This document shows positions 44,016-62,179 of a stretch of DNA of 64,000 nucleotides, piece by piece. Location: positions 1,728,001 through 1,792,000 of the forward strand of contig OX638340.1 of assembly GCA_951812955.1 (NCBI GenBank), given 5' to 3'. The stretch is from an uncultured Gemmatimonadota bacterium (GTDB lineage Bacteria; JAAXHH01). A program made the translations under genes and the position numbers. The notes beneath the pieces were generated by a model. That model did no database searches. It saw only the letters and a list, made by a program, of their open reading frames with translations, and was not told where the DNA came from. Within the stretch, counting starts at the first letter, position 1; the number at the start of each line of letters is the position of its first letter.

Positions 44016-46781
44016 ATGCAGAGCGCCAACCAAACACCTGAACAGAAGGCACGAGACATCATCGACGTCAGGCTGGAACGCGCTGGCTGGAACTTACAGT
44101 CGAAGAACGAGATCGACTTCAGCGCTGGTCGCGGTATTGCCGTTCGCGAGTATCCGACAGACATAGGCCCCGCGGATTACGTCCTTTTTGTCGACAAGAA
44201 ACCAACCGGCGTGGTTGAGGCCAAACCTGCCACGCAGGGTCAAAATATCACGACTGTCGAGGAGCAGTCATCTGGTTATGCCAATGCCAACCTCAAGTGG
44301 GTAGACAACAAAGAGCCACTCCCCTTTGTCTACGAATCTACCGGCGAGCTCACGAGGTTCACCGACAGTCGCGACCCGAATCCTCGCTCACGAGAAGTGT
44401 TCAGCTTCCATCGGCCAGAGACCATGGCGAACTGGCTCAGCCAGTCCAATCCACTGCGTGAGCGGCTCCAGGGGCTGCCGGAATTGGATGTCAAAGGACT
44501 CAGGGCGTGCCAGATAAACGCCATCGAGAACCTTGAAACATCCTTCAAAAAGGACCACCCTCGCGCCCTCATTCAGATGGCTACCGGCTCCGGTAAAACC
44601 TACACAGCCATTACCTCGATCTACCGACTGCTCAAGCACGCTGACGCCAGGCGAGTCCTCTTCCTTGTAGACACCAGAAACCTCGGCGAACAGGCCGAAC
44701 AGGAATTCATGGCCTACGTGCCCGGTGACGACAACCGCAAGTTCACCGAGCTGTACAACGTCCAGCGCCTCAAATCGTCCTACGTCGCCAACGACAGCCA
44801 GGTCTGCATCAGCACGATCCAGCGTATGTATTCGATTCTGAGGGACGAGGAACTGGATGACGCTACAGAGCAAATCAACCCGGCGGAAATGGTGCAGCCC
44901 AAAAAACCAGTGCCGGTTGCCTATAACGAGAAGATCCCACCGGAGTTCTTCGACTTCATCATCATCGACGAATGCCACCGCTCGATTTACAACCTGTGGC
45001 GGCAAGTCCTCGAGTATTTTGATGCCTATCTCATCGGCCTGACTGCTACGCCGGACAACCGAACCTATGGATTCTTCCGAAAGAACGTGGTCAGTGAATA
45101 CCCACATGAGGAAGCCGTCGCCGACGGCGTAAACGTCGGCAACGAAGTCTATGTCATCGACACGGAAAGGACAAAGCACGGCGGAAGACTCAAGGCGGAG
45201 CAGCAAGTTGAAAAACGCGAGCGCCTGACGCGGCTCAAACGCTGGGAGATTCAGGACGAGGACGTCACCTACACCGCCAAGGAACTCGACCGGTCCGTCG
45301 TCAACCCCGACCAGATCCGCACCGTCATCCGCACTTTCCGTGACAAACTGCCTGAGATATTCCCGGGCCGCGCCGAAGTCCCGAAGACGCTCGTTTTTGC
45401 AAAGACCGACAGCCATGCCGACGACGTCATCCAGACCGTGCGCGAAGAATTCGGCGAAAGTAACGAGTTCTGCAAGAAGGTCACTTACAAAACCGAAGAA
45501 GACCCGAAATCCGTCCTCGCCCAGTTCCGCAACGACTACTATCCGCGCATCGCGGTAACCGTGGATATGATCGCCACGGGTACCGACGTAAAGCCGCTCG
45601 AATGCCTGCTCTTCATGCGTGACGTGAGGAGCCGTAACTATTTCGAGCAGATGAAAGGTCGTGGCACCCGCACCCTCGACCATGACGATCTCAGACAGGT
45701 CTCGCCCTCCGCCGCCAGCGGAAAGACCCACTACGTGATCGTGGACACCGTAGGGGTCACGAAATCGCTCAAGACCGCCAGCCAGCCGCTCGTCACCAAG
45801 CCCTCCGTGCCACTCAGGGACCTCCTCATGGGGGTGATGATGGGCGCATGCGATGAAGACACGGTGAGTTCGCTCGCCGGGCGCCTCGCGCGGCTTGATC
45901 AACAACTCGATTCCGCCGATAAAGAGCGGATCAAGAAGCAAGCCGGCGGTATCGAACTCACTCAAATCGTTGGCGATCTACTTGCCGCCATCGACCCTGA
46001 TCGCATTCAGGAAAAGGCGCATGGAATCGAACCCGTGCCCGACGGTGTTGAACCACCACCTGCCGTTTGCGAGAAGGCCCGGGAGCAGCTGGTCCATGAC
46101 GCAGCCGACGTGTTCAACGGCGAACTGGTCGAATTGATCGACTCGATACGTCGCGACAAGGATCAGACGATCGACCATGACAGCTTGGACAAGGTAACCC
46201 GCGCCGAATGGGAAGGCGACACGCGCGAGAACGCCGAAGCCATAGCGCAGGACTTCCGGCAGTATCTCGAAGCGAATCGCGATGAGATCGAAGCGCTGAC
46301 CATCTTCTTCGCCCAACCGCACCGTCGCCGGGAGTTGACGTACGCCATGATTCGTGAAGTCTTCGATAGACTGAAGAGCGACCAGCCTCGACTGGTCCCA
46401 TTACGGGTCTGGCAGGCCTATGTTCTGCTCGACGAATACAAAGGCGGTCAGCCAATCAGCGAACTGACTGCGCTTGTAGCGTTGATTCGCCGTGCCTGTG
46501 GCATCGATGGAAAGCTTTCGCCCTATTCGGAAACCGTGCGCCGGAATTTCCGGGACTGGATCATGAAGCGACACAGCGGTAGCGGAGAGAAGTTCAACGA
46601 CGAGCAGATGGACTGGCTGCGAATGATCCGCGAACACATCATCACTTCGTTTCATCTTGAACGCGATGATCTGGATTTAGCACCATTCGATAGCAGGGGT
46701 GGAATGGGGCAGATGTACAAGCTCTTCGGTGACCAGATGGATGAATTGATTGGCGAGTTGAATGAGATACTGGCGGCGTAA
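44016..46781 (+). CDS. hsdR: Type I restriction enzyme R (endonuclease/translocase) subunit
   Basis: N-terminal PD-(D/E)xK nuclease core (D...VVEAKP). SF2 helicase motif I QMATGSGKTYTAI and motif II DECHRS. 921 aa. Confidence 0.93.
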   Translation: MQSANQTPEQKARDIIDVRLERAGWNLQSKNEIDFSAGRGIAVREYPTDIGPADYVLFVDKKPTGVVEAKPATQGQNITTVEEQSSGYANANLKWVDNKEPLPFVYESTGELTRFTDSRDPNPRSREVFSFHRPETMANWLSQSNPLRERLQGLPELDVKGLRACQINAIENLETSFKKDHPRALIQMATGSGKTYTAITSIYRLLKHADARRVLFLVDTRNLGEQAEQEFMAYVPGDDNRKFTELYNVQRLKSSYVANDSQVCISTIQRMYSILRDEELDDATEQINPAEMVQPKKPVPVAYNEKIPPEFFDFIIIDECHRSIYNLWRQVLEYFDAYLIGLTATPDNRTYGFFRKNVVSEYPHEEAVADGVNVGNEVYVIDTERTKHGGRLKAEQQVEKRERLTRLKRWEIQDEDVTYTAKELDRSVVNPDQIRTVIRTFRDKLPEIFPGRAEVPKTLVFAKTDSHADDVIQTVREEFGESNEFCKKVTYKTEEDPKSVLAQFRNDYYPRIAVTVDMIATGTDVKPLECLLFMRDVRSRNYFEQMKGRGTRTLDHDDLRQVSPSAASGKTHYVIVDTVGVTKSLKTASQPLVTKPSVPLRDLLMGVMMGACDEDTVSSLAGRLARLDQQLDSADKERIKKQAGGIELTQIVGDLLAAIDPDRIQEKAHGIEPVPDGVEPPPAVCEKAREQLVHDAADVFNGELVELIDSIRRDKDQTIDHDSLDKVTRAEWEGDTRENAEAIAQDFRQYLEANRDEIEALTIFFAQPHRRRELTYAMIREVFDRLKSDQPRLVPLRVWQAYVLLDEYKGGQPISELTALVALIRRACGIDGKLSPYSETVRRNFRDWIMKRHSGSGEKFNDEQMDWLRMIREHIITSFHLERDDLDLAPFDSRGGMGQMYKLFGDQMDELIGELNEILAA

Positions 46782-46928
46782 GTCGGTCTTTTGCCAGGCT
46801 TCTTACTGCTGCTCCCTTCTGCCGCACTACTTTACATATTGACCATTATCTTTACATCATGTAGTTTTTCTTGGTATATTATAGCAAGTAAAGAAATTCA
46901 ATAATACTCCAACAATTGATCTGCATCA

Positions 46929-47177
46929 TTGGAGCGTATCGTGCCCAAAGTCAGCGCCAAGCGACAGATAACGCTTCCGGCTGATCAGTGCCGTCTGGTC
47001 GGTATCGAGCCAGGCGACGAGTGCCAGAGTTTCGTGGCCGATGGCCGCATTACCATAGTCCGCCAGGAGCCCGGCAGCGCCTGGGGATGTCTGTCGCATC
47101 TCGAAGGGGATCAGACGGTTTCAGACGAGGAGTCGCGCCAGAACGCCATGGAGAGAAAGCGGGACCAAACGCCTTGA
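46929..47177 (+). CDS. vapB: AbrB/SpoVT/MazE-fold antitoxin (VapB-like)
   Basis: Swapped-hairpin segment SAKRQITLPADQCRLVGIEPGDE. The stop overlaps the start of a PIN-domain gene. Confidence 0.7.
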   Translation: MERIVPKVSAKRQITLPADQCRLVGIEPGDECQSFVADGRITIVRQEPGSAWGCLSHLEGDQTVSDEESRQNAMERKRDQTP

Positions 47178-47575
47178 TCGCAATCGACACCAATGTCCTG
47201 CTGCGCTATCTCCTGAAAGATGATGAGGCGCAGGCTGAACGGGCGCGTAGCGTTATCGAGTGCGGCGAGCGCGTGCTCATTACGGACGTGGTACTGGCGG
47301 AAACGGTATGGACGTTAGCCGGCCGCAGATATCGCGCGAGCCGGACCGATCTGATCGATCTGGTCAACAAACTGCTGCAAGATGCCAACCTGTGCTTTGA
47401 GGATGACGAAGTGGTCTGGAGCGCCCTGCAGGCCTTTCGCAGGACGGAGGCGGACTTCGCCGACGCCCTGATCGTGTGCAAGGCCAGAAAGACGGTCCCC
47501 GCCGGCGACGAGTTGAGCGCGGTTTACACCTTCGATGATACCGCCTTGCAGTTGCCCGGTACCGCAGAGCCGTAG
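47174..47575 (+). CDS. vapC: PIN-domain ribonuclease toxin (VapC-like)
   Basis: TTG at 47174 overlaps the vapB TGA (TTGA). PIN acidic residues IAIDTNVLL ... ITDVVLAE ... DFADALI. The track ORF is over-extended upstream. Confidence 0.72.
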   Translation: MIAIDTNVLLRYLLKDDEAQAERARSVIECGERVLITDVVLAETVWTLAGRRYRASRTDLIDLVNKLLQDANLCFEDDEVVWSALQAFRRTEADFADALIVCKARKTVPAGDELSAVYTFDDTALQLPGTAEP

Positions 47576-47689
47576 CGCGTGTCTGGTGTATCGGCGCACG
47601 GGAAGTATGCCGGTATCTTTGTGAGTAGATGGATGAAGTTACTGATGAGTTGAATGAGGCGTTGGTGGCGTCTTTGACGGACTGATTTT

Positions 47690-49231
47690 GTGAATACTAT
47701 GATTCCAAATGGATGGGCCCATACATCGCTTGAAGCGGTGTGTCAGGTTCTCGATTCTAAGCGTATACCGTTAAATAACAGCGAACGTTCTCGACGTATC
47801 GCTGGTAAGTCCGCTGATGATCTTTACCCCTACTACGGCGCTACAGGTCAAGTCGGTGTAATTGACGATTTTATCTTTGATGGAGAACATGTTTTATTGG
47901 GCGAAGACGGTGCCCCATTTAATGATCCTTTCAAGGTAAAATCTTATCTGGTAGATGGGAAATTCTGGGTCAACAATCATGCTCATATTCTCAAATCAGC
48001 TATCCCAAACAGATATCTATGCCACTATCTCAATCAGATTGACTATTCTGGCTATGTAACAGGAACGACAAGACTGAAGCTTACTCAGACCGCATTAAAG
48101 CGAATTCCTGTTCTTGTTGCTCCCAAAGCCGAACAACACCGCATCGTCGCCAAAATCGAGGAACTGTTTTCCAAACTGGACAAGGGCATTGAGAGCCTGA
48201 AGGCGGCGAGGGCAAAGCTCGATGTCTATCGTCAGGCCGTGCTCAAGCACGCCTTCGAAGGCAAGCTCACGGCCCAGTGGCGCGAAGAGAACAAGGACAA
48301 GCTTGAGACACCCGAGCAATTACTCTCACGCATCAAAAAAGAGCGGGAAGCACGTTATAATAGGCAACTGCAGGAGTGGAAGGACGCCGTCAAGAAATGG
48401 GTGGAAGGCGGTAAGTCAGGAAAGAAGCCGACGAAACCTCCGAAGTTGGAGGAAATACCACACTTATCGATAACCGAAACAGTAACTCTTCCACCCCTCC
48501 CCGCTAATTGGGCTTATTTACACTTGGGGCTTGTGATCGACGAGCCCAAGTACGGTAGTTCGAAGAAATGTAACTACGACTACAAAGGCACAGGGGTTTT
48601 GAGAATACCTAATATCGTCCGAGGTGCAGTCGACACGTCCGATCTCAAAGGGACTCACTTCGAAGAGGACGAGAAACGCGCCTACGGTTTGAGGAGTGGT
48701 GAAATTCTCGTGATCCGATCAAACGGAAGTATCTCCGTAGTAGGTAGGTGCGCTCTAATCTCAAAAGCAGAAGAGCAGTATCTGTACGCTGGTTACCTTA
48801 TCCGCCTACGTAGTAACTTGACCGCGTTGCATCCCGAGTACCTTGTAGCTCTACTGTCAAGCCATCTGTTACGAACTCAAATCGAGCACAAAGCAAAATC
48901 GACTAGCGGTGTCAACAACATAAATTCGGGTGAAATCCAATCGCTCATCGTCCCTTTGTGCAGTCTCAGTGAGCAGGAAATAGTAGTCGAACGACTGTCT
49001 GCAAGTCTATCCTCGATTGACGCTATCAAGGGTGAGATCGACAATCAGCTACTACAAACCGAAGCCCTGCACCAATCCATCCTCAAGAAAGCATTCTCGG
49101 GCCAGCTCGTCCCGCAAGACCCGAATGACGAGCCCGCGTCAATTCTGCTTGAGCGCATCAATGGCGTAAAAGCTGCACTATCTCAAAACAACACACAGAG
49201 AAGACGTAGACACGAGAAGGCAACGGCATGA
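47690..49231 (+). CDS. hsdS: Type I restriction-modification specificity subunit
   Basis: Two target-recognition domains separated and followed by conserved coiled-coil spacer repeats (AKIEELFSKLDKGIESL ...). 513 aa. Confidence 0.9.
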   Translation: MNTMIPNGWAHTSLEAVCQVLDSKRIPLNNSERSRRIAGKSADDLYPYYGATGQVGVIDDFIFDGEHVLLGEDGAPFNDPFKVKSYLVDGKFWVNNHAHILKSAIPNRYLCHYLNQIDYSGYVTGTTRLKLTQTALKRIPVLVAPKAEQHRIVAKIEELFSKLDKGIESLKAARAKLDVYRQAVLKHAFEGKLTAQWREENKDKLETPEQLLSRIKKEREARYNRQLQEWKDAVKKWVEGGKSGKKPTKPPKLEEIPHLSITETVTLPPLPANWAYLHLGLVIDEPKYGSSKKCNYDYKGTGVLRIPNIVRGAVDTSDLKGTHFEEDEKRAYGLRSGEILVIRSNGSISVVGRCALISKAEEQYLYAGYLIRLRSNLTALHPEYLVALLSSHLLRTQIEHKAKSTSGVNNINSGEIQSLIVPLCSLSEQEIVVERLSASLSSIDAIKGEIDNQLLQTEALHQSILKKAFSGQLVPQDPNDEPASILLERINGVKAALSQNNTQRRRRHEKATA

Positions 49232-49983
49232 CCGGCAAACTTGCCATCAACATCGATAACCTGCTGCGCCAGCGTGCCATCGAAGAGGCGCTGGTGAACG
49301 CCATCGACCATCGCTCATACGAGGAGCGGGAGCCGGTTGAAGTTCGGATCACCCGCGATGAGTTGCTGGTCCTGAGTTATCCCGGGGCGGACCGCTCCAT
49401 CCGTATGGACGACTTCAAGCAGGGGCAGGCCGTGAGCAGGCGCTACCGGAACCGGCGAATTGGTGAGTTTCTGAAGGAACTCGACCTCGCCGAGGCCTGC
49501 TCAACCGGGGTGCCGAAGATTTTCACGGCCATGCAGCAGAACGGCTCACCGGAACCCATCTTCGAAAGCGACGAGAACCGGACCTGGTTTCGCGTGCGCC
49601 TGCCGGTGCATGAACGGGCATTACTTGCCACGACCGACCAGGATACCATACATGATACCCAACATGATAACTCATTGATAAATAAAAGGAAAAGTCACGG
49701 TACCCAACACGGTACCCAACATGATACCCAACATGATATCGACCAAGTCGAGCAACTGGTGGCTGTGCTCACTGGAGAGATGAGCCGAGCTAGTATCCAG
49801 GCAGGATTGGAACTCAAAGATCGGCCCCATTTCATCGAATCGTATCTAAAGCCTGCCCTGGAGGCCAAGTTGATTGAAATGACCCTCCCGGACAAACCCA
49901 CCAGTCGCCACCAGCGCTATCGCCTAACTGCCGCTGGAAAGGCTTTAGCTGAGCAAATCAAACGAGAGAACACCGCCAAATGA
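49228..49983 (+). CDS. HATPase_c_4 (RecG-C-terminal-like) plus wHTH small protein embedded in the hsdS-hsdM operon
   Basis: Segment NAIDHRSYEEREPVEVRITRDELLVLSYPG ... WFRVRLPVH matches the C-terminal module of Schlafen/AlbA_2-type putative regulators common in R-M loci. ATGA overlaps at both ends (49228/49231 and 49980/49983). Internal HGTQHGTQHDTQHD repeat. Confidence 0.5.
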   Translation: MTGKLAINIDNLLRQRAIEEALVNAIDHRSYEEREPVEVRITRDELLVLSYPGADRSIRMDDFKQGQAVSRRYRNRRIGEFLKELDLAEACSTGVPKIFTAMQQNGSPEPIFESDENRTWFRVRLPVHERALLATTDQDTIHDTQHDNSLINKRKSHGTQHGTQHDTQHDIDQVEQLVAVLTGEMSRASIQAGLELKDRPHFIESYLKPALEAKLIEMTLPDKPTSRHQRYRLTAAGKALAEQIKRENTAK

Positions 49984-51467
49984 ACACCGCTCCCATCGTA
50001 TCCAAAGTCTGGAGTTTCTGCAACACCCTGCGCGACGACGGGGTGAGCTATGGCGATTACCTGGAACAACTCACCTATCTGATATTTCTGAAGATGGCAG
50101 ACGAGTACGCCAAACCGCCGTACAGTCGGGACGTCGGCATCCCGGTCGAATTCAACTGGCAGAGCCTGAGATCGAAGAACGGCGCGGAACTCGAAGGCCA
50201 CTACGTCGCGCTGCTTCGAGCCTTCGGCACCAGGACGGGCATGCTGGGCCAAGTCTTTACCAGGGCCCAGAACAAGATCCAGGATCCGGCAAAGCTGTTC
50301 CGCCTCATCGCCATGGTGGACGACACCGAATGGGTCACCATGGGCGCCGACATAAAAGGGGATATCTACGAAGGGCTCCTGGAGAAGAACGCCGAAGATA
50401 CCAAGACCGGCGCGGGCCAGTATTTCACGCCGCGTGCTCTCATCCGGGCCATGGTCGAGTGCGTACGGCCCGAACCGGGAATGCTCATCGCTGACCCGGC
50501 CTGCGGTACGGGCGGTTTCTTTCTCGCTGCATACGACTTCATCACCAACCAGGACAATTTCAGGTTAGACAAGGATCAAAAAGCGTTCCTGAAACACGAG
50601 GCGTTTCACGGCAATGAAATCGTCCCCAATACACGCCGTCTTTGCCTGATGAACATGTTCCTGCACAATATCGGTGAAATCGACGGCGGCGTCCCGATAT
50701 CGCCCAACGACGCGCTGGTGGCCGATGCCGGCAAGCGTTACGACTATGTGCTGGCGAATCCGCCCTTCGGCAAGAAAAGTTCCATGAGTTTCACGAACGA
50801 GGAAGGCGAACAGGAAACCGACGACCTGACCTACAACCGGCAGGATTTCTGGGCGACGACCTCGAACAAACAGCTGAATTTCGTGCAGCACATCCGCACG
50901 ATGCTCAAGACCACCGGCCGCGCTGCTGTCGTCGTTCCCGACAATGTACTGTTCGAAGGCGGGGCCGGTGAGACGATCCGCAAAAAGCTGCTGGACAACA
51001 CGGACTTGCACACCATCCTGCGCCTGCCGACGGGCGTGTTCTACGCGCAGGGCGTCAAGGCCAATGTGATCTTCTTCGACAATCACGAAGCCAGCCCGAA
51101 TCCCTGGACGAAGCAGGTCTGGTACTACGACTACCGCACCAATATCCACCATACGCTGAAGAAGAAACCACTGCGCTTCGAGGACCTGTCGGATTTCATC
51201 AACTGCTACAACCCGCAGAATCGCCACCAGCGCAAGGCGACCTGGGACGAAAACGATGCACCGGAAGGCCGTTGGAGGAGTTACAGCTACGAGGAGATAA
51301 TCGCGCGCGACAAGACCAGTCTCGACATCTTCTGGCTCAAGGACAAAAGCCTGACGGACCTGGACAACCTGCCCGAACCTGATGACCTTGCCGAAGAGAT
51401 CATAGAGAACCTGGAGGCAGGTCTCAACAGCTTTCGCGAGGTGCTGGCTGGATTGGGGAGGCAGTAG
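49980..51467 (+). CDS. hsdM: Type I restriction-modification N6-adenine DNA methyltransferase subunit
   Basis: HsdM N-terminal domain, motif I DPACGTGGF, motif IV NPPFG. 495 aa. Confidence 0.95.
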   Translation: MNTAPIVSKVWSFCNTLRDDGVSYGDYLEQLTYLIFLKMADEYAKPPYSRDVGIPVEFNWQSLRSKNGAELEGHYVALLRAFGTRTGMLGQVFTRAQNKIQDPAKLFRLIAMVDDTEWVTMGADIKGDIYEGLLEKNAEDTKTGAGQYFTPRALIRAMVECVRPEPGMLIADPACGTGGFFLAAYDFITNQDNFRLDKDQKAFLKHEAFHGNEIVPNTRRLCLMNMFLHNIGEIDGGVPISPNDALVADAGKRYDYVLANPPFGKKSSMSFTNEEGEQETDDLTYNRQDFWATTSNKQLNFVQHIRTMLKTTGRAAVVVPDNVLFEGGAGETIRKKLLDNTDLHTILRLPTGVFYAQGVKANVIFFDNHEASPNPWTKQVWYYDYRTNIHHTLKKKPLRFEDLSDFINCYNPQNRHQRKATWDENDAPEGRWRSYSYEEIIARDKTSLDIFWLKDKSLTDLDNLPEPDDLAEEIIENLEAGLNSFREVLAGLGRQ

Positions 51468-51608
51468 GCGGTAGATGAACTTGTTAGGGACTCACTTACC
51501 GCGTATTACGATTATGTTCCGTTTATTTTCACTGTATTGAAGTTACTCCGAAAAACCAGTTAGGTTCGATTCATTTTCCATCGCAAGTATGTAAATCACT
51601 GAATTACT

Positions 51609-53777
51609 ATGAATAGTAACTGCAAAACTGAAGTTCGATCCGAATCTGAAATAGTCACCGATTTAGAGAGTTTGAGCCAGGAAAAAGGGTACATCTATTC
51701 CTTCTGTCGAATGGTTGATGAATACCTGTGGTTGAAACCCAGCGAACCCGAAATCCCTGATTGGCACAGTCAATTAAACATACGTGAGTTAACTTTCTTA
51801 TTAGGGTTAATGGTCAAGTATCAATTGACCATATCTGATTCTCCGACTGAACGGGAGTCTGACCTACATATCGATAAGACCAATGAGTTGTTTCATGAAC
51901 TTCATCAAACTCATGCTTTTCCGAAAACAAAGGAAGTAAACGCCGCCCAAGTGAACTTAGAAGATTGGGAATCGGGGTTGAAAAACACCTATACCGACTG
52001 GATCAAAAGCGGTAAAGGTATCGTCGAGCCGGTTTTTTATGGTGAAGAAGGTGCATACGATTTCCAGTTCCTCAAAATGGCAGCATGGAGGTACAAACTT
52101 GATAATCAGTGGATAAAGTCGAACATAGGTATGGATGTTGATACTTTAACTGATATCGCAGGTAAGATTAAACGACTTACCGAATATCGCGCCAATGATG
52201 TAACCAGGACGTCAGACTTCAGAGATTCATGCTTTCGGTTGATATCAGTCTTCTTAATTAAGCCAGATGGCGTTCCTGGCGCTAATAGAGAAGAAATCGA
52301 AGTCTTTCTTGAAACCTTTTCTGTTGAACCACGGGACGGAGTTAATCAGAACCTTAACACGATTGGTGAATACAACACGGCAGACTCGCACCCCATTATT
52401 AAGATTAACAATGAACTTTATTTCATTCCCATCTACTACAACCTAGCAAAATCCATCTACGAGAACCCCTTCTACTGGATTCTCAAAGACAGTGATTACA
52501 GACAAACAGGACTTCAGAACAGGGGTGATGTTACAGAAGAAATAGTATTCGAACTGTTACGACGAGTTTTTGGTATAGACAACGTTTTTCGCAGGGTAAA
52601 AATAAAACGTGGAAACAGAGACATAACGGATATCGACGTTCTTGCAGTATGTGGGAGTAAAGCTGTCATTGTACAGGTGAAATCTAAGAGACTTACGGTG
52701 CTGTCGAAAGGTGGTGATGGCAAGAGCATAGAGAAGGATTTCAAACAAGCTGTTCAGGATGCTTACACCCAAGCGTTATTGTCGAGAAACTTCCTGCTAG
52801 AGACAGATGAAACACTGACGGTTAATGAAGAAAGGCTAATGCAGGTCAAAGGGAACATCGATGATGCCTATATAATCTGCGCTACTGGTGATCATTATCC
52901 TGCAATTACTATTCAGACAAAGTCATACCTCAAAAAGAAGGCAACCGACCCTTACCCAGTTGTACTAAGCGTTTTTGACCTTGATACTATATCGTTTTAC
53001 CTCAGAGAACCGTATGATTTCATATACTACGTTCGTCAACGCACTATACATGCGGGTCACTTCGAGGCTGATTCAGAAATGGCCTTTCTTGGTTTTCATC
53101 TAAACAAAAAACTATTTCCCACAGATGGATATGATATCACGATTATCCCACAATATTATGCATATCTCATCGATATTAGTTTTCCAGTCCTAAAGGGTGA
53201 GCATCCTATTTCGGATGCAGCATACAAGGTATTCCACAAGTGGAAAAACAACGATTTTGATGAGCTAGTTAATGAAATCAAAGTTAGAAATACCGGTCAT
53301 CCACAACTGACAGATTTGATTTTCTTTTTGTTCGATTTAGCAGGATCAGTAGCCGACAAGATTTTCGAAATCTTCGGCGAAATCAAACGAACCACTCGTG
53401 GTGACCTAAAGCCTCACGATGCTACAATTCCAATAGACCAAGCCGGGAAAGGTATAACACTGTTCTGCTACCCTTCGACGTTAGAACTTAGTGAGACAAT
53501 AATCCAAGATCAGTTTCGAGGCTTTGCAGCTGCTCGGAAATACAAAAGCAAAGCTAATGAATGGTTAGCGCTCGCATCATCCGCACAAAGTTCAAATCTG
53601 TTTGACTGTCTCTGGTATAGTAAAGAAGTATGGTGTTATGATGAGAGTTTCGAGCGTCTATCAAAACACATGATTAAACAAGGACATCCCATTCGTACTG
53701 ACGGACGGAAAATAGGTAGAAATTCACCCTGCCCTTGTGGAAGTGGATTGAAGTTTAAAAAGTGCCACGGAAAATAA
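51609..53777 (+). CDS. Large uncharacterised protein with a NERD-like (PD-(D/E)xK-type) core and a C-terminal SEC-C zinc-binding motif
   Basis: 722 aa, AT-rich. Segment RGNRDITDIDVLAVCGSKAVIVQVKSKR matches the NERD/PD-(D/E)xK D...(E/Q)xK core. The C-terminus GRNSPCPCGSGLKFKKCHGK is a SEC-C (SecA C-terminal-type) metal-binding motif. Confidence 0.6.
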   Translation: MNSNCKTEVRSESEIVTDLESLSQEKGYIYSFCRMVDEYLWLKPSEPEIPDWHSQLNIRELTFLLGLMVKYQLTISDSPTERESDLHIDKTNELFHELHQTHAFPKTKEVNAAQVNLEDWESGLKNTYTDWIKSGKGIVEPVFYGEEGAYDFQFLKMAAWRYKLDNQWIKSNIGMDVDTLTDIAGKIKRLTEYRANDVTRTSDFRDSCFRLISVFLIKPDGVPGANREEIEVFLETFSVEPRDGVNQNLNTIGEYNTADSHPIIKINNELYFIPIYYNLAKSIYENPFYWILKDSDYRQTGLQNRGDVTEEIVFELLRRVFGIDNVFRRVKIKRGNRDITDIDVLAVCGSKAVIVQVKSKRLTVLSKGGDGKSIEKDFKQAVQDAYTQALLSRNFLLETDETLTVNEERLMQVKGNIDDAYIICATGDHYPAITIQTKSYLKKKATDPYPVVLSVFDLDTISFYLREPYDFIYYVRQRTIHAGHFEADSEMAFLGFHLNKKLFPTDGYDITIIPQYYAYLIDISFPVLKGEHPISDAAYKVFHKWKNNDFDELVNEIKVRNTGHPQLTDLIFFLFDLAGSVADKIFEIFGEIKRTTRGDLKPHDATIPIDQAGKGITLFCYPSTLELSETIIQDQFRGFAAARKYKSKANEWLALASSAQSSNLFDCLWYSKEVWCYDESFERLSKHMIKQGHPIRTDGRKIGRNSPCPCGSGLKFKKCHGK

Positions 53778-53847
53778 CATCCGATCCTGAAACTTGATCT
53801 TGCAAGGGTCTGTCACGGAAAGGTTCGGTCATAGAGTATTAAGCTTA

Positions 53848-54918
53848 TTATTCTTCTTGTTCTTCGGGATATGGGAGGACTGGGGCTGTTGTCCAGCCTT
53901 CACGTTCAGGTGAATTATGTCCTGTACATATAGTTCTGCCCTCTGTCGAAACTACTTTCGCCCCACGGTGTATACAAGCCCGAATAACTGCTTTTCTAGG
54001 GTGATCCTCGTCTTCTTTAGACGCACTTATAATTGCGTTAAAATGTTCGTTTCCCTCTTCTTGCTTCTCTGGCAGTCGCTTACCCAGCAATCTGTCAAGT
54101 ATCTCCGTTGATAAATTGCGTCGTGATCCGTGGTGCGGGACCTGAAAATGGTCAATTCCTGGAAGTGTCAGTCCTACTGATGGCGCATAATCCAGTGCCT
54201 CGGTAAGTGCACCTCGTCCTGCATCCGCAGTCAGTAATACCTTTTTCTCGCAAAGATTAGCATACTGGATCACACTCATCTCATTTTCAAAGCTAGTTTC
54301 TTCCGGTGAAAACGTTTCTTCACCCCATGCAGATCTTATAAACGAAACAACACTTTTTACGAAAGCACGTCCATGTCCTAACAATGATTGAGCTGTCCCT
54401 TCCGGAGTTCTATCGGATTCAACAATGAGATTCAGATACCTTTCTTTTGATGGTGCAAGGACCGTGAACTCTCCGATTTGTTCTCCTTGAAATGGTGCCA
54501 ATATCGGTATCTCTCGTGCCTTAGCAATCTCTTCAAGTTCGGCAATGTTTGGGTATATTTCCTTTAGCCTACGAACCAGATTCTCCACATTTGTAAAACG
54601 AGCAAACCGGTCAATTAACTCATCTGCATATAGCCATGGTCGTAACATCCACAACTCTGAGACGCTAAATGCTTCGAGGACTTTTCGTAGCCCGCCTGTA
54701 TGGTCGCCATCGGAATGACTGGCTATAACGGCATCAATCGTGCTAGGGTCATCATAATACTTTTTGATATGCTCAATTACAATGTCTCCAGAATCCTGAA
54801 ATCCTCCATCAGTTACGTGAACTCTCTTGACACCAGCTATGGAATACCGAAGTGGTATTGCATCCCCGCTCTTGCTTGACTTTACGTCAAGGAAATCAAT
54901 TTCAAAAAAGTATGACAT
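53848..54918 (-). CDS. Metallo-beta-lactamase-fold hydrolase, ComEC-C-terminal-like (putative nuclease)
   Basis: MBL motifs HVTDGG (D), ASHSDGDHTGG (variant HxHxDH), LLTADAG, and a terminal VPHHGS motif reminiscent of ComEC/Rec2-type MBL domains. 356 aa, AT-rich. Confidence 0.65.
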   Translation of the reverse strand: MSYFFEIDFLDVKSSKSGDAIPLRYSIAGVKRVHVTDGGFQDSGDIVIEHIKKYYDDPSTIDAVIASHSDGDHTGGLRKVLEAFSVSELWMLRPWLYADELIDRFARFTNVENLVRRLKEIYPNIAELEEIAKAREIPILAPFQGEQIGEFTVLAPSKERYLNLIVESDRTPEGTAQSLLGHGRAFVKSVVSFIRSAWGEETFSPEETSFENEMSVIQYANLCEKKVLLTADAGRGALTEALDYAPSVGLTLPGIDHFQVPHHGSRRNLSTEILDRLLGKRLPEKQEEGNEHFNAIISASKEDEDHPRKAVIRACIHRGAKVVSTEGRTICTGHNSPEREGWTTAPVLPYPEEQEE

Positions 54919-54921
54919 ATG

Positions 54922-55422
54922 CTACTCTTGCTCCTTGATTTTAGCGTTTCTTACGCGCTTAGCTACATATTGAGTCTGTTTTCTATAAGAGAATAAAAAT
55001 ATCAACAATAACCCCGCCAAAATTATTAAAACTATTTCATCATCACTTATAGACCACAAATGCTTCAACTCGTCAAAGATTTTGAGGAAAACTAACACAA
55101 TCACTAGCGAACTCAGCGTACGATACATGTTGTTCTGTTCTGACAAGACCTCGATCTTTGAATCCACTTCTACTGCTTCCAGATAATCCTTGTAGTCTGC
55201 GAACCGAACAAATTTGATCTTTTTGAGTAGGGGTTCCAATATCAACGATCCAATCCTGCTAATGACCAACCCTGCCATGTAGTATATAAACACTCCTATG
55301 ATCCAGTCCTTATGGACTAATGAAAATGAGGTGATTTGTTCTCCCAGACCAGCAAATAGAACTCCAGGAAGTAGATAGTTAAAAATGTTATATGACGACA
55401 GCTTTTCAATTACAGTTTTCAT
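54922..55422 (-). CDS. Small polytopic membrane protein, first gene of a two-gene operon with the MBL-fold hydrolase
   Basis: 166 aa with about 4 hydrophobic helices (LLPGVLFAGL, IIGVFIYYMAGLVI, LSSLVIVLVFL, IVLIILAGLLLIFLF). Its stop lies 3 nt before the MBL gene start. Confidence 0.6.
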   Translation of the reverse strand: MKTVIEKLSSYNIFNYLLPGVLFAGLGEQITSFSLVHKDWIIGVFIYYMAGLVISRIGSLILEPLLKKIKFVRFADYKDYLEAVEVDSKIEVLSEQNNMYRTLSSLVIVLVFLKIFDELKHLWSISDDEIVLIILAGLLLIFLFSYRKQTQYVAKRVRNAKIKEQE

Positions 55423-56413
55423 CAGGTTTGCCTTTTTGTTTTATTGCCTAAAACATCCTCCATAACAACAAAATCTAATGTACACAACTAATCGTCGTAC
55501 TAGCTAGTAAGTGAAACTTCCACTCCTATCCTGCTTTAAAATGGTATGTCAACACCAGAAGTGATTTTTGTACAGCACCTAATTGGGTAGTGATATGTTT
55601 TTAAATCTCGTTGAATGTAACCCTAATGTATCGACAAATCCCGATTATTTACAAGTAATTAACCCGTAGATTGCCTCTTTAAACAGATTGACATGGGAGG
55701 TTCTACATGGTAACCTGAACACGTCAACGATTCCAATTCGGCTCGAGCCGGGTATTCTGCTGAATATAGAACCCACAAAGGTAGATTTGCAAAACCTCCC
55801 GCAATCTTTAGGTGGAGCGTTGACACTGCCCGTCACCAACAAACAGATTGGTGCTAAAGCTGGGGTTCGCCATGAGGGTTTTCGGTACCATAGTACTGTG
55901 GGTGTTAGCACTGTAGGAACTTAGATGTTCATAGTTGCCATGTTTTATTCCAATTCGGTTTCCTAGGAGCTAGAGCAGGACAATCTCGATTTAGTAGCAA
56001 AGGAACATCAGGTCTCTGTTTTGGAGAATACCCTTGAGAAGTTGAGGGCTCAAACCAACTTGGTGGATGAACTGACGGCCGTTCAGATAGAAAACATCAA
56101 ACTGATGGATAAGTTGATCAAAGCGAACAACGACTAGATTAATATGGTAAACAAGCATTTCATAAAGCATAGGTACCGTCCCATTGACCGGGGAGGGTTA
56201 GATTGCAACTAAGTCTTAGGATTGGTCGCCAGAGACTGAACGGTTCGGTGCCCTGATTGCGTGGTTGAATGGTCAAGTTCGAGGAAATTGACAAGCAGTT
56301 CGACCGGGTGGATGTACCACTGGACGTGCTGGTGCTGAACATGCGTGAACTCAGAACCGATGTGACAGATGGTCTTAGAAAACACGCAATAGAAAGATAG
56401 GAGGGAGTGAAGA

Positions 56414-57151
56414 ATGGAAAATGACGGACAACTGGAACAGATTATCGAACTGTTGATGGACTTAAATTCCCACATGGCAGACCTTAAAGAACTCATCAAG
56501 GTTTCAAACAATCAACTGGATATCATCAAAAGTTACTTGGACAGCATAGATCGTAATTCAGCATAGGAGTCAATATGTCGTTGGGAGGATATACGTATAT
56601 AGCGGACACTGAGACATTGAAATCAAACTACGAGTTATTGCAGAAAAGCCTTATTCAACTTATCAACGAGACGAATAGTGCTGAAATAATGCTCAAGGCG
56701 ATTTCGTTAATGATCGAACTAGATTCCACCTATACCAAGGGAAATAGGTGAAGGGGTCTTTATGCCCACAGGACCGAAGGGCGAGAAGCGGCCTCGTGAC
56801 TTCGTCGGATCGGTCATTACAGTCGGCAAGATCACCACTGGTTTAATAGAAGAGACCAGAGTAAGCCCTGCCAAGTAAAATGCCGGAACTAGGCCAGGTC
56901 GATACGACTGACCGCGTCATGCCGGACCGAGATCGGCTGGTATGCCGGCGAATGTGCGGTGGGGAGGTCAAAGTACCAGATAGCGGAGGATTGACATGAA
57001 GCAACTGGAGCAGAAGGATATTAAGATCGCATTGGATAGGCTCAATGCCGAAATAGAACAAAAGCAACGCACGGTGGACCATTATCAAGGTGAATTGGAT
57101 AGCCTTAAAAACGTTGCGGAGCTTTTGGAGTCTCTTCTGGGATCACAGTAA
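56414..57151 (+). CDS. Cluster of four tiny AT-rich ORFs (50, 58, 38 and 51 aa), coiled-coil-like, each with an RBS
   Basis: ORFs at 56414-56566 (AGGAGGGAG RBS), 56575-56751, 56762-56878 and 56996-57151 (GGAGGA RBS). All are below the 60-aa track cutoff and were translated by hand. Confidence 0.3.
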
Positions 57152-57453
57152 ACTGATACTGGTGGAAGTCAGTATGGATTTTGGAAGAATTTAAGATCGT
57201 ACTCGAAATCGTAAGGACATTGCTTGGCCCATGATTGAAAGGAGGTCATGATGGACAGGTACAAAGGAATGTATCCGATTCCAATAAATAGAGAAATCAT
57301 TGAGACCAAGAGGAAGCATTGGGAAGTCCTTCTATAAGCAGACCGAGTTCTCGAACAGGCTTCCAAGCAAATTGGTCTCGACACGTCCGAAGAAACATAT
57401 TAAAAATAAGAGAAATGCTTAACACAACGGGTTGGTTTCGTTATACTTAGTAT

Positions 57454-58191
57454 ATGAAAAGGATCATCCGAGACAAGCTACTGTTAATGCTGAACATGCT
57501 GTTAGAAGTGTCTTCGATAAGTTCTATCGCTAGGATCGTCGGGGTCAACTACATCACCGTTCAGAAACTCATGCTGGATTCCGTTCAGGTGTGCAAAATC
57601 TTCCACCATAAAACCGTAATGGATGAAGACGCCAAGCAAATACAATGCGACAAATATGGAACTTCGTTTAGAACAAGGTCCAATGCGGTCTGGACGTAGA
57701 CGGCCATCCGGCAAGACACCAAGTTTATTCTGGCTTTCAAGGACGGAGACAGAACCAACGAAACCGCCAAGACGCTATTCGACGATCTGATGACGCGGCT
57801 GCGAAACAAGATGTGGATCCGGACGGACAGGCTTCCTTCCTACTCAGGGGCGATATGGGACTCGTTTTTCGTGTCTGCCACACATCAATTAGCGGGCGCC
57901 GCCGCAGTCTAATACTCCAACATAGAGCGCCAGAATCTCAACATGCACATGGGAGTGTGAAGGTACACCCGAGCGACCGATGCGTTCTCTAAGAAGATCG
58001 ACTATCTATACAACCTGCTCTCATTGTACTTCGTCTTCTACAACTTTATCCGAAAGCATCTGCTACTTGGCATGACTCTCGCTCAGGGAATCGGCCTTTC
58101 TGGTGAAACCCGCGACCTGGGTAAGATACTTGATGTGGTGGACGAAGCAGCCCCACTTCCGAACAGGCCGAAGACGTACAGAAAGTGCTAG
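57454..58191 (+). mobile_element. Degenerate IS1-family insertion sequence (InsA-like ORF intact, InsB region disrupted by stops/frameshifts)
   Basis: InsA-like HTH LLEVSSISSIARIVGVNYITVQKL. InsB-like segments in other frames: MWIRTDRLPSY (cf. IS1 TDGWPxY) and IERQNLNMH...AFSKKIDYLYN (cf. IS1 IERHNLNLRQHLARL..SLSFSKS), interrupted by stop codons. Confidence 0.6.
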
Positions 58192-58550
58192 GAACATCAT
58201 TCATTCTTTTGTCACAAGGAGTATTCACTGTGGATATGCGTAAACTTACGGTTAAAATATCTGATCCCAATGAGGAAGATTCATCGGGGTTTTTAGTTGA
58301 GGCTGTACCGATTGGGGCAAGCCTCGTCTTGACATCAGTAGGATACATCAGATTGAGGGCAGTGAGTGAAAGAACGGATGTATACGGTCTCGCTATTTTG
58401 GAGTTAATTCCTTCTGCAAAGTTGAATGGCTTGTATTACAGGATCAATATCTCTGACGGTAGCGCGAGTTACTCACGCTTTATCATAATGCCGAACGAAG
58501 ACGTCAATCTGCATGATTTAATGTTGTATGAAGAGATGCCGGAAGGCTGA
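58185..58550 (+). CDS. Hypothetical protein, AT-rich, last ORF of the island
   Basis: 121-aa ORF abutting the IS1 remnant, with no recognisable motifs. A more likely start is MRKLTVK at 58236. Confidence 0.3.
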   Translation: MLGTSFILLSQGVFTVDMRKLTVKISDPNEEDSSGFLVEAVPIGASLVLTSVGYIRLRAVSERTDVYGLAILELIPSAKLNGLYYRINISDGSASYSRFIIMPNEDVNLHDLMLYEEMPEG

Positions 58551-58756
58551 AGGCTAAATTACCGATAACATACAATCCTTAGTACTACCTTAATTGAATG
58601 ATAGCGGTACCTAGAGTTGCTTGTAATCGGGCTCTCACAATCTCGTTTAAAAATTGGTCAACAATCAATGTGCTCTTAACACAGTGCAATTATACACCGC
58701 ACGTTCATCGAGAAACCACATTACTTGATACAACCTCGACTACACGATAAGGCTTT

Positions 58757-59539: not shown

Positions 59540-59590
59540 GAATTACACCTTTCCTGGTTAAATCGTAAGTTGGTATGATCCAGTGCTCGG

Positions 59591-61849: not shown

Positions 61850-62179
61850 GATCAGGCCCCTGTAGAGGTACGGACGCGTATCGAATTCCGATCGAATGCG
61901 AGCCGGAATCTGTACAGGCGCCAGCTGGAAACCGTACAGGCGCGGACCAGATTCCGGTGGAATAAAACAATCGCTGTATTGAACTTATACGTTTAAGTGC
62001 CGAAATACAATACATTTGTAGTGTGTCGCTCTTACACTTCAAGCTCGTTTTCACATTGCCCGGCGGTTCCATTCACATGCATAATGGACGAGGATATACG
62101 TGGGATATACCCCACCTGACCGACAAACCTGTCAATCCAGCCAACCACCGGCCGCGGCGAACCAAGGAGCGAAATTCCC

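What the first reader, a model, noticed from the sequence alone, without database searches (positions are those of the whole stretch)
53848..55422. Operon of a membrane protein plus a ComEC-like MBL-fold hydrolase in an AT-rich island
The MBL protein has a variant second motif SHSDGDH and ends with VPHHGS, a signature I associate with the nuclease-like MBL domain of ComEC/Rec2. Here it is a stand-alone 356-aa protein, and the 166-aa multi-TM protein upstream is separated by only 3 nt. Base composition is foreign and the pair sits in a defence locus. It could be a membrane-tethered nuclease effector, an abortive-infection-type module, or a split competence-like DNA-processing unit.
Basis: partly seen in the sequence, partly recalled or inferred. 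Interest (0 to 1): 0.7.

Follow-up and report, generated by a model that had tools for sequence, protein, structure and literature searches.

The report
Membrane protein plus ComEC-like nuclease pair
This is a real two-gene operon, a small four-helix membrane protein plus a ComEC-like metal-dependent nuclease, and it belongs to a widespread candidate anti-phage system (PADLOC PDC-M48) that is already catalogued but apparently never tested.

Summary
A 166-aa membrane protein gene (54922-55422, minus strand) sits 3 nt upstream of a 356-aa MBL-fold gene (53848-54918). The region has about 40-43% GC against about 60% in the rest of the window, and it lies beside a type I restriction-modification operon.

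Both proteins match the PADLOC models PDC-M48A and PDC-M48B over their full length (E 9e-63 and 2.6e-166). PDC-M48 is an untested candidate from the "guilt-by-embedding" study.

Homologues of this MBL occur across many phyla, on plasmids, and in the defence hotspot of P2-like coliphages. About 90% of them lie next to a small membrane protein, drawn from at least four families. One of these families is Csx27-like. Some homologues lie next to an E2-E1-JAB protein instead.

No competence genes accompany them.

The most likely function is a membrane-associated DNase defence module. The mechanism is inferred, not shown. I rate it a new member of a known, uncharacterised kind, of moderate interest.

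The parts
54922..55422 (-). Gene for a 166-aa inner-membrane protein (PDC-M48A family). It is predicted to have four TM helices with both termini in the cytoplasm, a cytoplasmic loop of about 37 residues (64-100) and a basic C-terminal tail.
   Evidence: ORF. PADLOC PDLC04670, E 9e-63, residues 1-162 against profile 1-162/164. AF2 model with pLDDT 91 and helices at 2-30, 40-68, 77-86, 89-122 and 127-165. K+R counts per loop give an N-in/C-in topology. No PDB match by sequence or fold. PHROG 11864, E 1.9e-38.
53848..54918 (-). Gene for a 356-aa stand-alone ComEC-like MBL-fold metallo-hydrolase (PDC-M48B family). It has no signal peptide or TM segment, so it is predicted to be cytoplasmic.
54919..54936 (-). 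Gene junction: a 3-nt spacer (54919-54921) between the TAG stop and the ATG start, with a Shine-Dalgarno-like AAGGAG (54931-54936) inside the 3' end of the membrane gene. This implies co-transcription and coupled translation.
   Evidence: Read directly from the sequence.
54700..54720 (-). MBL motif 2, SHSDGDH (S67-H73). This is the HxDxDH variant typical of ComEC, with predicted metal ligands H68, D70, D72 and H73.
   Evidence: H68 and H73 are invariant, and D70 and D72 are conserved in at least 90%, across 120 homologues. The motif aligns to ComEC HPDADH. ComEC D600, D602 and H603 are catalytic (PMC12455585).
54223..54225 (-). MBL motif 4, the bridging aspartate D232 in LLTADAG.
   Evidence: Invariant in 120 homologues. 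It aligns with ComEC LLSADIE.
54124..54141 (-). MBL motif 5, VPHHGS (V260-S265).
   Evidence: P261, H262, H263, G264 and S265 are invariant. The motif aligns to ComEC VPHHGS. ComEC H725 is implicated in catalysis, and the S728A variant has reduced nuclease activity.
53851..53871 (-). Conserved acidic C-terminal tail YPEEQEE (Y350-E356). Its role is unknown. It may be a docking or autoinhibitory peptide.
   Evidence: The tail YP(E/D)(E/D)QEE is conserved in almost all of the 70 full-length family members from 77 genomic loci, whatever the partner protein.
44016..58756 (.). Context: a variable defence island. It holds a type I RM operon (hsdR, PIN, hsdS, Fic-like, hsdM; 44016-51467), a NERD/SEC-C protein (51609-53777), the PDC-M48 pair, and 3.3 kb of AT-rich DNA without long ORFs (55423-58756). 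It ends at the core gene xth (58757-59539).
   Evidence: Synteny with the Latescibacterota MAG locus L001: the core genes are 86-90% identical in nucleotides and the pair is 83% identical, but the rest of the island differs.

Best explanation
The two genes form one operon that is a member of the candidate anti-phage / anti-mobile-element system PDC-M48.

Shown: the 356-aa protein has a ComEC-type MBL fold with a complete binuclear-metal phosphodiesterase site (H68, D70, D72, H73, D232, H262, H263, S265). The 166-aa protein is a four-helix inner-membrane protein. The two genes are inherited together. Across bacteria, this MBL clade is almost always encoded next to a small membrane protein, inside defence islands, plasmids and phage defence hotspots.

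Inferred: the MBL is a Mn2+/Zn2+-dependent DNase that works on the cytoplasmic face of the membrane. The membrane protein holds it there and licenses it, for example in response to phage DNA entry or membrane perturbation. Invading DNA, or all DNA in an abortive response, is then degraded. Activation would not need a protease, unlike the related Avs- and Hachiman-associated MBL zymogens.
For: Identity with PDC-M48:
- Both proteins match the PADLOC models over their full length: PDC-M48A E 9e-63 and PDC-M48B E 2.6e-166.
- PDC-M48 is cassette CAS_00157 (FAM_01875>>FAM_00178) in the Payne et al. supplement. It is one of 145 untested candidates found embedded in BREX, DISARM or type I RM systems.

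Nuclease-like fold:
- The catalytic residues are invariant or nearly so in 120 homologues.
- More distant defence MBLs also match: LmuA E 2.6e-18, RTasMBL E 9.5e-14, Avs1a E 3e-8. An Avs-associated MBL was shown to be a Zn2+-dependent dsDNase (bioRxiv 10.1101/2025.11.14.688446).

Linkage of the two genes:
- They are 3 nt apart.
- 41 of 77 genomic MBL loci have the same membrane family directly upstream. About 26 more have another small membrane protein next to the MBL.
- In the reverse test, 59 of 80 metagenomic loci found with the membrane protein have an MBL-superfamily gene next door. Many of the other contigs are too short to tell.
- Pairwise distances of the two proteins correlate: Mantel r 0.67, with 0 of 2000 permutations reaching it.

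Defence context:
- Neighbours in related loci include RM methylases, ResIII helicases, McrBC, Cas genes, E2/E1/JAB proteins, integrases and transposases.
- The family is on 44 plasmids and 7 viral contigs.
- It also sits in the variable region beside replication gene A of P2-like coliphages, which I take from my own knowledge of P2 to be the old/tin defence hotspot, and in 45 of 5426 E. coli genomes.
- In a syntenic relative the pair is kept at the same hotspot while the other cargo differs.
Against: - I found no experimental test of PDC-M48. The string is absent from all 8 million full texts searched, and other PDCs were chosen for validation instead.
- The defence role rests only on guilt by association.
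- Neither the substrate nor the direction of regulation is shown.
- The isolated ComEC MBL domain binds DNA very weakly and needs an OB fold. No DNA-binding domain is recognisable here.
- About 6 of 74 informative MBL loci have no adjacent membrane protein, and some have an E2-E1-JAB protein instead. The membrane partner is therefore not strictly required by the enzyme.
- I could not model the two proteins as a complex.
Confidence: 0.6

Rival explanations
1. Abortive-infection module with the roles reversed. The small membrane protein is the killing effector, forming an oligomeric pore that depolarises the cell in the manner of RexB or Csx28. The MBL is the cytoplasmic sensor or gatekeeper, for instance triggered by phage nucleic acid.
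For: The membrane protein has conserved polar residues inside its helices (N12, N15, S55, R56, S59, N97, N98) and long helices. In many defence systems TM proteins are the effectors (Rousset 2022). There is a weak Pfam hit to the octameric membrane protein family 8xMP (E 0.0012, below cut-off).
Against: The MBL active site is strictly conserved, which argues for catalysis rather than sensing alone. The MBL is the constant component, while the membrane partner is swapped among at least four families or replaced by E2-E1-JAB. That pattern is more typical of a constant effector with variable sensors or regulators. There is no fold match to any known pore.
Confidence: 0.13
2. A competence-like DNA uptake and processing unit. 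The 4TM protein would form an ssDNA channel and the MBL would degrade the other strand, as a split miniature ComEC. Makarova et al. proposed this for Csx27-family operons in 2019.
For: The closest solved structure is the ComEC nuclease domain. One partner family hits the Csx27 model (E 5e-8), and the window's family aligns to that partner family collinearly (hhalign probability 61%, E 8e-5). The 2019 hypothesis is cited in PMC7642515 and PMC8209922. PGAP names the E. coli homologues 'ComEC/Rec2 family competence protein'.
Against: There is no ComEC channel domain or OB domain: TIGR00361 scores 27.8 bits against a cut-off of 190. No ComEA, DprA, pilin or other competence family appears among the 25 commonest families next to the related loci. 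The genes sit in AT-rich horizontally acquired islands, plasmids and a phage defence hotspot. [quoted passage not shown]
Confidence: 0.07
3. A phosphodiesterase acting on something other than nucleic acid, targeted by its membrane partner. Candidate substrates are a phospholipid head group, a cell-envelope phosphodiester as in the pneumococcal enzyme Pce, or a nucleotide second messenger.
Confidence: 0.1
4. A selfish addiction or stabilisation module of mobile elements, with the MBL as a toxin held in check by the membrane protein and no role in phage defence.
For: The family is found on plasmids and prophages and spreads horizontally across phyla. The two genes are tightly coupled.
Against: It was originally found embedded in RM, BREX or DISARM systems. 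It occupies the variable region next to replication gene A in P2-like phages. It is retained at a chromosomal hotspot in two related genomes. It lacks the typical TA features: there is no small labile antitoxin and no DNA-binding autoregulator.
Confidence: 0.05

Closest known systems
PADLOC phage-defence candidate PDC-M48 (M48A + M48B), from Payne et al., bioRxiv 10.1101/2024.01.29.577857
   Same: Both proteins match the family HMMs over their full length, and the gene order A>>B on one strand is the same. Like the founding examples, the pair sits beside a type I RM system.
   Different: Nothing structural differs. Here the pair lies next to the RM operon on the opposite strand rather than embedded in it. 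PDC-M48 itself has no tested function or mechanism.
ComEC/Rec2 beta-lactamase-like nuclease domain (PDB 9IC4; also 30bt, 9vcb)
   Different: The window protein is a stand-alone cytoplasmic protein of 356 aa. It has about 90-115 extra residues, roughly at 94-134, 158-213 and in a C-terminal extension with an acidic tail. It has no competence channel, no OB fold and no competence operon. It scores far below the ComEC family cut-off (27.8 against 190 bits).
Csx27-family 4TM proteins linked to ComEC-like MBLs, E1-E2-JAB proteins and WYL regulators (Makarova, Gao, Zhang, Koonin 2019, FEMS Microbiol Lett fnz088; paper not held, known from memory and from citing papers)
   Same: The protein is a small four-TM protein encoded next to a ComEC-like MBL. 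Related loci add E2-E1-JAB and WYL genes. One alternative partner family of this MBL clade matches the Csx27 HMM (E 5e-8).
   Different: Homology between the window's own membrane family and Csx27 is only suggestive. There is no direct HMM hit, and hhalign to the Csx27-like family gives probability 61%. There is no Cas13b, E1-E2-JAB or WYL gene in this window.
Protease-activated defence MBL zymogens (Avs1a-type MBL, HamMAB MBL) and the 6A-MBL system
   Same: They belong to the same broad ComEC/RNase J-like MBL group used as a defence effector. An Avs-associated member is a Zn2+-dependent dsDNase. The window MBL hits the Avs1a, LmuA and RTasMBL models weakly.
   Different: There is no adjacent protease and no E2-E1-JAB gene here. 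The scores are far below the family cut-offs: Avs1a 38.8 against 420 bits and the 6A-MBL enzyme 20.4 against 220 bits. The partner is a membrane protein, so activation, if it occurs, must work differently.
Two-component defence systems made of a small membrane protein and a cytoplasmic nucleic-acid-directed protein, such as RexAB and Kiwa (KwaAB) (from my own knowledge)
   Same: The logic is analogous: a small multi-TM protein is paired with a cytoplasmic DNA-directed partner, encoded in defence islands or prophages.
   Different: No sequence or fold relationship was detected. This is a functional analogy only.

Membership tests
PADLOC PDC-M48 candidate system | A protein matching a PDC-M48A HMM | tested here: met
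   PDLC04670, E 9e-63, residues 1-162 against profile 1-162/164. It also matches PDLC04671 and PDLC04672.
PADLOC PDC-M48 candidate system | A protein matching a PDC-M48B HMM | tested here: met
   PDLC04676, E 2.6e-166, residues 1-356 against profile 1-357/357.
PADLOC PDC-M48 candidate system | The two genes are adjacent, in the order A then B | tested here: met
   They are 3 nt apart on the same strand. The cassette is defined as FAM_01875>>FAM_00178.
PADLOC PDC-M48 candidate system | Demonstrated anti-phage activity | not testable with these tools
   No paper in the searched library mentions PDC-M48. The PDCs were published as untested candidates.
ComEC/Rec2 competence protein | MBL nuclease domain with the HxDxDH and HHGS motifs | tested here: met
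ComEC/Rec2 competence protein | Polytopic competence (DNA channel) domain and N-terminal OB fold in the same protein | tested here: not met
   The protein is 356 aa and contains only the MBL fold. TIGR00361 scores 27.8 bits against a cut-off of 190, and only residues 61-91 match best.
ComEC/Rec2 competence protein | Genomic association with other competence genes | tested here: not met
   The 25 commonest Pfam families among 232 neighbours of the 77 loci are RM, helicase, E2/E1/JAB, Cas and mobile-element families. None is a competence family. Only the 25 commonest families per batch are shown, so rare cases could be missed.
Csx27 family of 4TM proteins | Four transmembrane helices in a protein of about 160-230 aa | tested here: met
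   AF2 helices and hydropathy, with a positive-inside charge distribution.
Csx27 family of 4TM proteins | Detectable sequence homology to Csx27 | tested here: inconclusive
   The window protein has no Csx27 hit at E <= 0.1. The partner family F4 (locus L047) hits Csx27 at E 5e-8 and PDC-M48A at E 2.8e-4. hhalign of F1 against F4 gives probability 61% and E 8e-5, and the alignment is collinear with shared motifs.
Protease-activated defence MBL (Avs1a-type) | Equivalog-level match to Avs1a, plus an adjacent protease-sensor gene | tested here: not met
   NF041809 scores 38.8 bits against a cut-off of 420. No protease gene flanks the pair.
6A-MBL system | An MBL enzyme matching NF058524, plus an E2-E1-JAB fusion protein | tested here: not met
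   20.4 bits against a cut-off of 220. No E2/E1/JAB gene was seen among the ORFs examined around the pair and in the island. Such genes do flank relatives elsewhere.
Class B beta-lactamase / glyoxalase II type small-molecule MBLs | The HxHxDH motif and a family-level HMM match | tested here: not met

The most novel reading that the evidence does not exclude
The pair could be a protease-independent way of arming a latent defence DNase. A small four-helix membrane protein would detect phage genome entry or envelope perturbation. It would then release or activate a ComEC-type nuclease at the inner face of the membrane, so that incoming DNA is destroyed at its point of entry, which is competence machinery logic run in reverse. 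The invariant acidic C-terminal tail of the MBL (YPEEQEE) and the basic cytoplasmic tail of the membrane protein would act as the latch. Swapping the membrane partner among at least four families would retune what is sensed.
Probability: 0.25. Interest if true: 0.7.

Novelty: new member of a known kind. Interest (0 to 1): 0.4.

Why it matters
PDC-M48 is widespread. The MBL has about 3700 homologues at 90% clustering, and the membrane family has about 1150 clusters at 50% identity. It spans many phyla, plasmids and phages, yet it has no tested function.

If it is confirmed as a defence system, it would add a membrane-coupled way of controlling the ComEC-like MBL nucleases. These nucleases are already known as effectors in the Avs, Hachiman and E2-E1-linked systems. 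It would also allow a test of the 2019 prediction that links Csx27-like membrane proteins to ComEC-like nucleases.

This work identified a tractable version of the pair in P2-like prophages, present in 45 complete E. coli genomes. That makes the question directly testable.

For this window specifically, the finding is an ordinary member of that family, sitting in a typical variable defence island.

Tried and rejected
- **Literature.** A search for the literal string 'PDC-M48' returned nothing. A search for '8xMP' returned only irrelevant papers. 'ComEC-like' combined with phage defence returned nothing. Makarova 2019 is not held, either by DOI or by PMC id.
- **Source genome.** Looking up the exact MBL protein to recover its source contig failed. 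The organism was instead inferred from synteny with a Latescibacterota MAG.
- **Other partner families.** F2 and F3 show no detectable relationship to F1 or to Csx27 by hhalign, Pfam or PADLOC.
- **Rst_Hydrolase-3TM.** I considered this validated hydrolase-plus-TM system and rejected it. Its hydrolase is HAD-like, not MBL, and no PADLOC Rst model matched.
- **NERD/SEC-C protein.** I considered the neighbouring 722-aa protein as a third component and rejected it, because it is absent from all 77 related loci.
- **Other features.** No tRNA, no Rfam family and no consensus terminator was found near the pair. The promoter scan was not above chance.
Full report
**1. The observation**

The window contains two minus-strand ORFs exactly as described: 54922..55422 (166 aa) and 53848..54918 (356 aa). 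The upstream TAG stop (54924-54922) and the downstream ATG start (54918-54916) are separated by 3 nt. An AAGGAG lies inside the last codons of the upstream gene. This is a co-transcribed, probably translationally coupled pair.

GC is 0.40-0.43 over 53-56 kb and 0.40-0.48 over 51-59 kb. Most of the window is about 0.60.

The latter is the last catalytic motif rather than the C-terminus, which is YPEEQEE.

The flanks are defence genes:
- A type I RM operon at 44016-51467, made of hsdR, hsdS and hsdM.
- Two genes embedded in that operon, a PIN-domain protein and a HATPase_c_4/Fic-like_C protein.
- A 722-aa NERD + SEC-C protein at 51609-53777.

To the right the island ends at the core genes xth (58757-59539) and a topoisomerase IV/gyrase A-like gene.

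**2. What the proteins are**

*The MBL protein.* Pfam recognises only the N-terminal third as Lactamase_B (E 1.6e-8). Other evidence is stronger:
- A profile built from 120 homologues finds ComEC MBL domains as the best PDB sequences (9ic4 E 3e-6, 30bt E 6e-5). The alignments are SHPDGDHAGGL with THPDADHIGGL, and FQVPHHGSRRN with FKVPHHGSRYG.
- The AlphaFold2 model is confident (pLDDT 89, pTM 0.89).

The ComEC domain is a Mn2+-dependent endonuclease and 5'-3' exonuclease on DNA. Its residues D600, D602, H603, H725 and S728 are implicated in catalysis or substrate binding (PMC12455585). The equivalents here are D70, D72, H73, H262 and S265. Together with H68, D232 and H263, they are invariant or conserved in at least 90% of 120 homologues.

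The protein has no signal peptide or TM segment. Compared with the 266-residue ComEC domain it carries extra helical segments, roughly at 94-134 and 158-213, including a low-confidence loop at 181-192. It also has a C-terminal extension that ends in an acidic tail. That tail is conserved throughout the clade.

- N-terminus 1.9, loop 64-100 5.6, C-terminal tail 6.0;
- the two short loops 0.3 and 0.9.

This gives a four-TM, N-in/C-in topology. Several polar residues inside the helices are conserved in at least 90% of sequences: N12, N15, S55, R56, S59, N97 and N98.

**3. It is a catalogued candidate system**

Against PADLOC-DB v2, the two proteins match PDC-M48A (E 9e-63) and PDC-M48B (E 2.6e-166) over their full length. 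[quoted passage not shown] Their supplement lists PDC-M48 as cassette CAS_00157, FAM_01875>>FAM_00178, with a count of 63 in the column beside it. It also lists a second cassette that pairs the same MBL family with another partner and fell below their cut-off.

I found no paper that mentions PDC-M48. Studies that validated PDCs chose other systems.

**4. Relatives and co-occurrence**

The MBL has 3749 homologues and the membrane protein has 2927. The closest 120 of each are mostly of similar length. A profile of the membrane family finds 1158 clusters at 50% identity, and the 150 best-scoring listed are all small stand-alone proteins.

A scan of one genome per species returned 77 loci. They come from Poribacteria, Latescibacterota, Cyanobacteria, Alpha-, Beta- and Gammaproteobacteria, Firmicutes, Bacteroidota, Acidobacteria, Planctomycetota and other phyla, at 51-87% identity. 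That spread implies horizontal transfer.

The gene next to the MBL in those 77 loci is:

| Partner | Loci |
|---|---|
| F1, the window's membrane family, directly upstream, usually 3 nt away | 41 |
| F2, an unrelated TM protein of about 213 aa, upstream or downstream | 15 |
| F3, a TM family of about 156 aa | 6 |
| F4, a TM family of about 225 aa | 2 |
| F5, another TM family | 2 |
| A seven-TM protein | 1 |
| No adjacent membrane gene | about 6 |
| Locus truncated | 3 |

In the reverse test, 80 metagenomic loci were retrieved with the membrane protein. In 59 of them an MBL-superfamily gene lies next door. Many of the remaining contigs are too short to tell, and in a few the membrane gene was not called. 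The adjacent MBLs are:
- the 356-aa type, either downstream or upstream;
- a 295-aa type that matches another PDC-M48B model at E 1.8e-153;
- a 381-aa LmuA/Avs1a-like MBL followed by a 704-720-aa E2-E1-JAB fusion protein.

Pairwise distances of the two proteins across 34 loci are correlated (Mantel r 0.67, with 0 of 2000 permutations reaching it). This shows co-inheritance. It does not by itself show physical interaction.

**5. Links to other systems**

E2-E1-JAB fusion proteins lie next to the pair in several genomic and metagenomic loci. In these loci there is often also a second MBL of the Avs1a/LmuA type, which is the '6A-MBL' architecture.

On Acinetobacter pOXA58-type plasmids, an MBL of the window's clade (54% identity, tail YPEEQES) directly follows a hypothetical gene and a ThiF/E2-E1-JAB gene. 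A divergently transcribed WYL-domain gene lies upstream, and there is no membrane gene.

The F4 partner family matches the PADLOC Csx27 model over nearly its full length (E 5e-8) and PDC-M48A weakly (E 2.8e-4). hhalign aligns F1 and F4 collinearly and picks up shared motifs: YN/DxFxYLxxG, YxxGxIxxxxSxxxE, ExxNxY, and a terminal YR/K-rich segment. The probability is only 61% (E 8e-5).

This is the association that Makarova et al. described in 2019: Csx27-family 4TM proteins with ComEC-like components, ubiquitin-like E1/E2/JAB proteins and WYL regulators. I could read that paper only through citing papers. Whether the window's membrane protein belongs to the Csx27 family is therefore plausible but not established.

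**6. Defence context**

Neighbours within three genes in the 77 loci are dominated by:
- type I, II and III methylases, specificity subunits and ResIII/DEAD helicases;
- McrBC, Cas proteins, E2/ThiF/JAB proteins and AbiEii-like ATPases;
- integrases and transposases.

No competence family appears among the commonest families.

The MBL family is on 44 plasmids and in 7 IMG/VR viral contigs. One viral contig carries F1 directly upstream and another carries an F2-like gene upstream. Both proteins match PHROG families. The MBL's PHROG carries a 'tail protein' label that looks like a propagated misannotation.

P2-like coliphages (Peduovirus P24E6b and phages D8, 11W and 12W) carry an MBL homologue (35% identity) and an F1 homologue (39% identity; profile E 6e-47). 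The two genes are convergent and lie next to replication gene A. From my own knowledge of P2, this is the region of its variable anti-phage hotspot. The same 1.6-kb pair occurs in 45 of 5426 complete E. coli genomes, where PGAP calls the MBL 'ComEC/Rec2 family competence protein'. A supplementary table of Rousset et al. 2022 lists 'hypothetical + Lactamase_B' among prophage or satellite hotspot cargos. The main text does not mention a lactamase-type system among those described or tested.

A Latescibacterota MAG (locus L001) is syntenic with the window. Its topoisomerase-like and xth genes are 86-90% identical in nucleotides and the pair is 83% identical at the same position. The sequence on either side of the pair within the island is unrelated. 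This is a variable hotspot in which the pair has been retained.

**7. Mechanism**

Shown by computation:
- a complete ComEC-type active site;
- a four-TM partner;
- operon coupling;
- near-obligate pairing of this MBL clade with some small membrane protein;
- defence-island, plasmid and phage-hotspot locations.

Established by others for relatives:
- the ComEC MBL domain is a DNase;
- Avs-associated MBLs are latent Zn2+-dependent dsDNases that a protease unlocks by cutting two occluding linkers;
- E2-E1 'MBL pathways' are grouped with type II CBASS.

Inferred: this MBL is a DNase held or licensed at the cytoplasmic face of the membrane by the 4TM protein.

Three observations suggest that the MBL is the effector and the partners are interchangeable sensors or regulators. 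The MBL is the constant part. The partner is swapped among unrelated membrane families or replaced by E2-E1-JAB. The catalytic site is invariant. The acidic MBL tail and the basic cytoplasmic tail of the membrane protein could interact, but that is speculation.

The rival explanations are given in the Rival explanations section, each with evidence and a refuting test:
- the membrane protein as a pore effector;
- a competence-like uptake unit;
- a non-nucleic-acid phosphodiesterase;
- an addiction module.

**8. Verdict**

However, the pair is a routine member of an already catalogued family that has not been tested experimentally, and its wider gene association was described in 2019.

Novelty: new member of a known kind. 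Interest: moderate (0.4).

The value of this work lies in three things:
- the documented modular swapping of partners;
- the conserved acidic tail;
- a tractable E. coli prophage homologue for experiments.

Noticed in passing
window 46988-47575 (+) and 49228-49983 (+): The type I RM operon has two embedded genes. One is a 195-aa PIN-domain protein between hsdR and hsdS. The other is a 251-aa HATPase_c_4 + Fic-like_C protein between hsdS and hsdM, whose start and end overlap the neighbouring genes by 4 nt. Both fit the 'guilt-by-embedding' pattern for candidate defence genes.
   Followed up: partly
window 51609-53777 (+): A 722-aa protein with a central NERD nuclease-related domain and a C-terminal SEC-C zinc motif. 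It is convergent with the MBL gene, with 70 nt between the two stop codons. It is absent from all 77 related loci, so it is an independent candidate, possibly a single-gene defence protein.
   Followed up: partly
window 55423-58756: 3.3 kb of AT-rich DNA between the pair and xth. It has only short ORFs (121 aa or less), no Pfam hit for the six ORFs tested and no Rfam hit, and no similarity to the equivalent stretch of the syntenic MAG. Two fragments (57454-57699 and 58024-58191) look to me like remnants of a transposase, but nothing confirmed this.
   Followed up: partly
L001 (JAJEAN010000007.1, Latescibacterota MAG) compared with window 53851-64000: A close relative of the window's genome carries the same membrane + MBL pair (83% nucleotide identity) at the same site downstream of xth. 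The flanking island genes are entirely different: a 302-aa second MBL-like ORF upstream, and 1192-aa and 1409-aa proteins downstream.
   Followed up: partly
window 53851-53871; 70 full-length MBL genes from loci L001-L077: The MBL clade ends in a conserved acidic tail, YP(E/D)(E/D)QEE, whichever partner gene it has. It is preceded by a conserved R339...W342 segment. The function is unknown.
   Followed up: partly
L006, L008, L015, L024, L089, L093, L101, L109, L111, L126, L143; L165 (A. baumannii plasmid pOXA58_005078, 13196-17757): E2-E1-JAB fusion proteins of 700-850 aa lie directly beside the membrane + MBL pair, or replace the membrane protein. There is often a second Avs1a/LmuA-like MBL, and on the plasmid also a WYL regulator. 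This suggests that PDC-M48 and the '6A-MBL' ubiquitin-like systems exchange components.
   Followed up: partly
L167 (Peduovirus P24E6b, LR595885.1 29118-30706); 45 E. coli genomes, e.g. NZ_CP032515.1 1076895-1078492: P2-like coliphages and prophages carry a homologous pair in convergent orientation next to replication gene A. RefSeq labels the MBL 'ComEC/Rec2 family competence protein'. One phage record and the matching PHROG label it 'tail protein'. Both labels look like misannotations.
   Followed up: partly
window 54922-55422 (protein residues 86-147): Weak, sub-threshold Pfam match of the membrane protein to PF24838, the 'octameric membrane protein family (8xMP)' (E 0.0012, 19 bits against a cut-off of 30). 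I found no literature on that family and could not evaluate the hit.
   Followed up: partly
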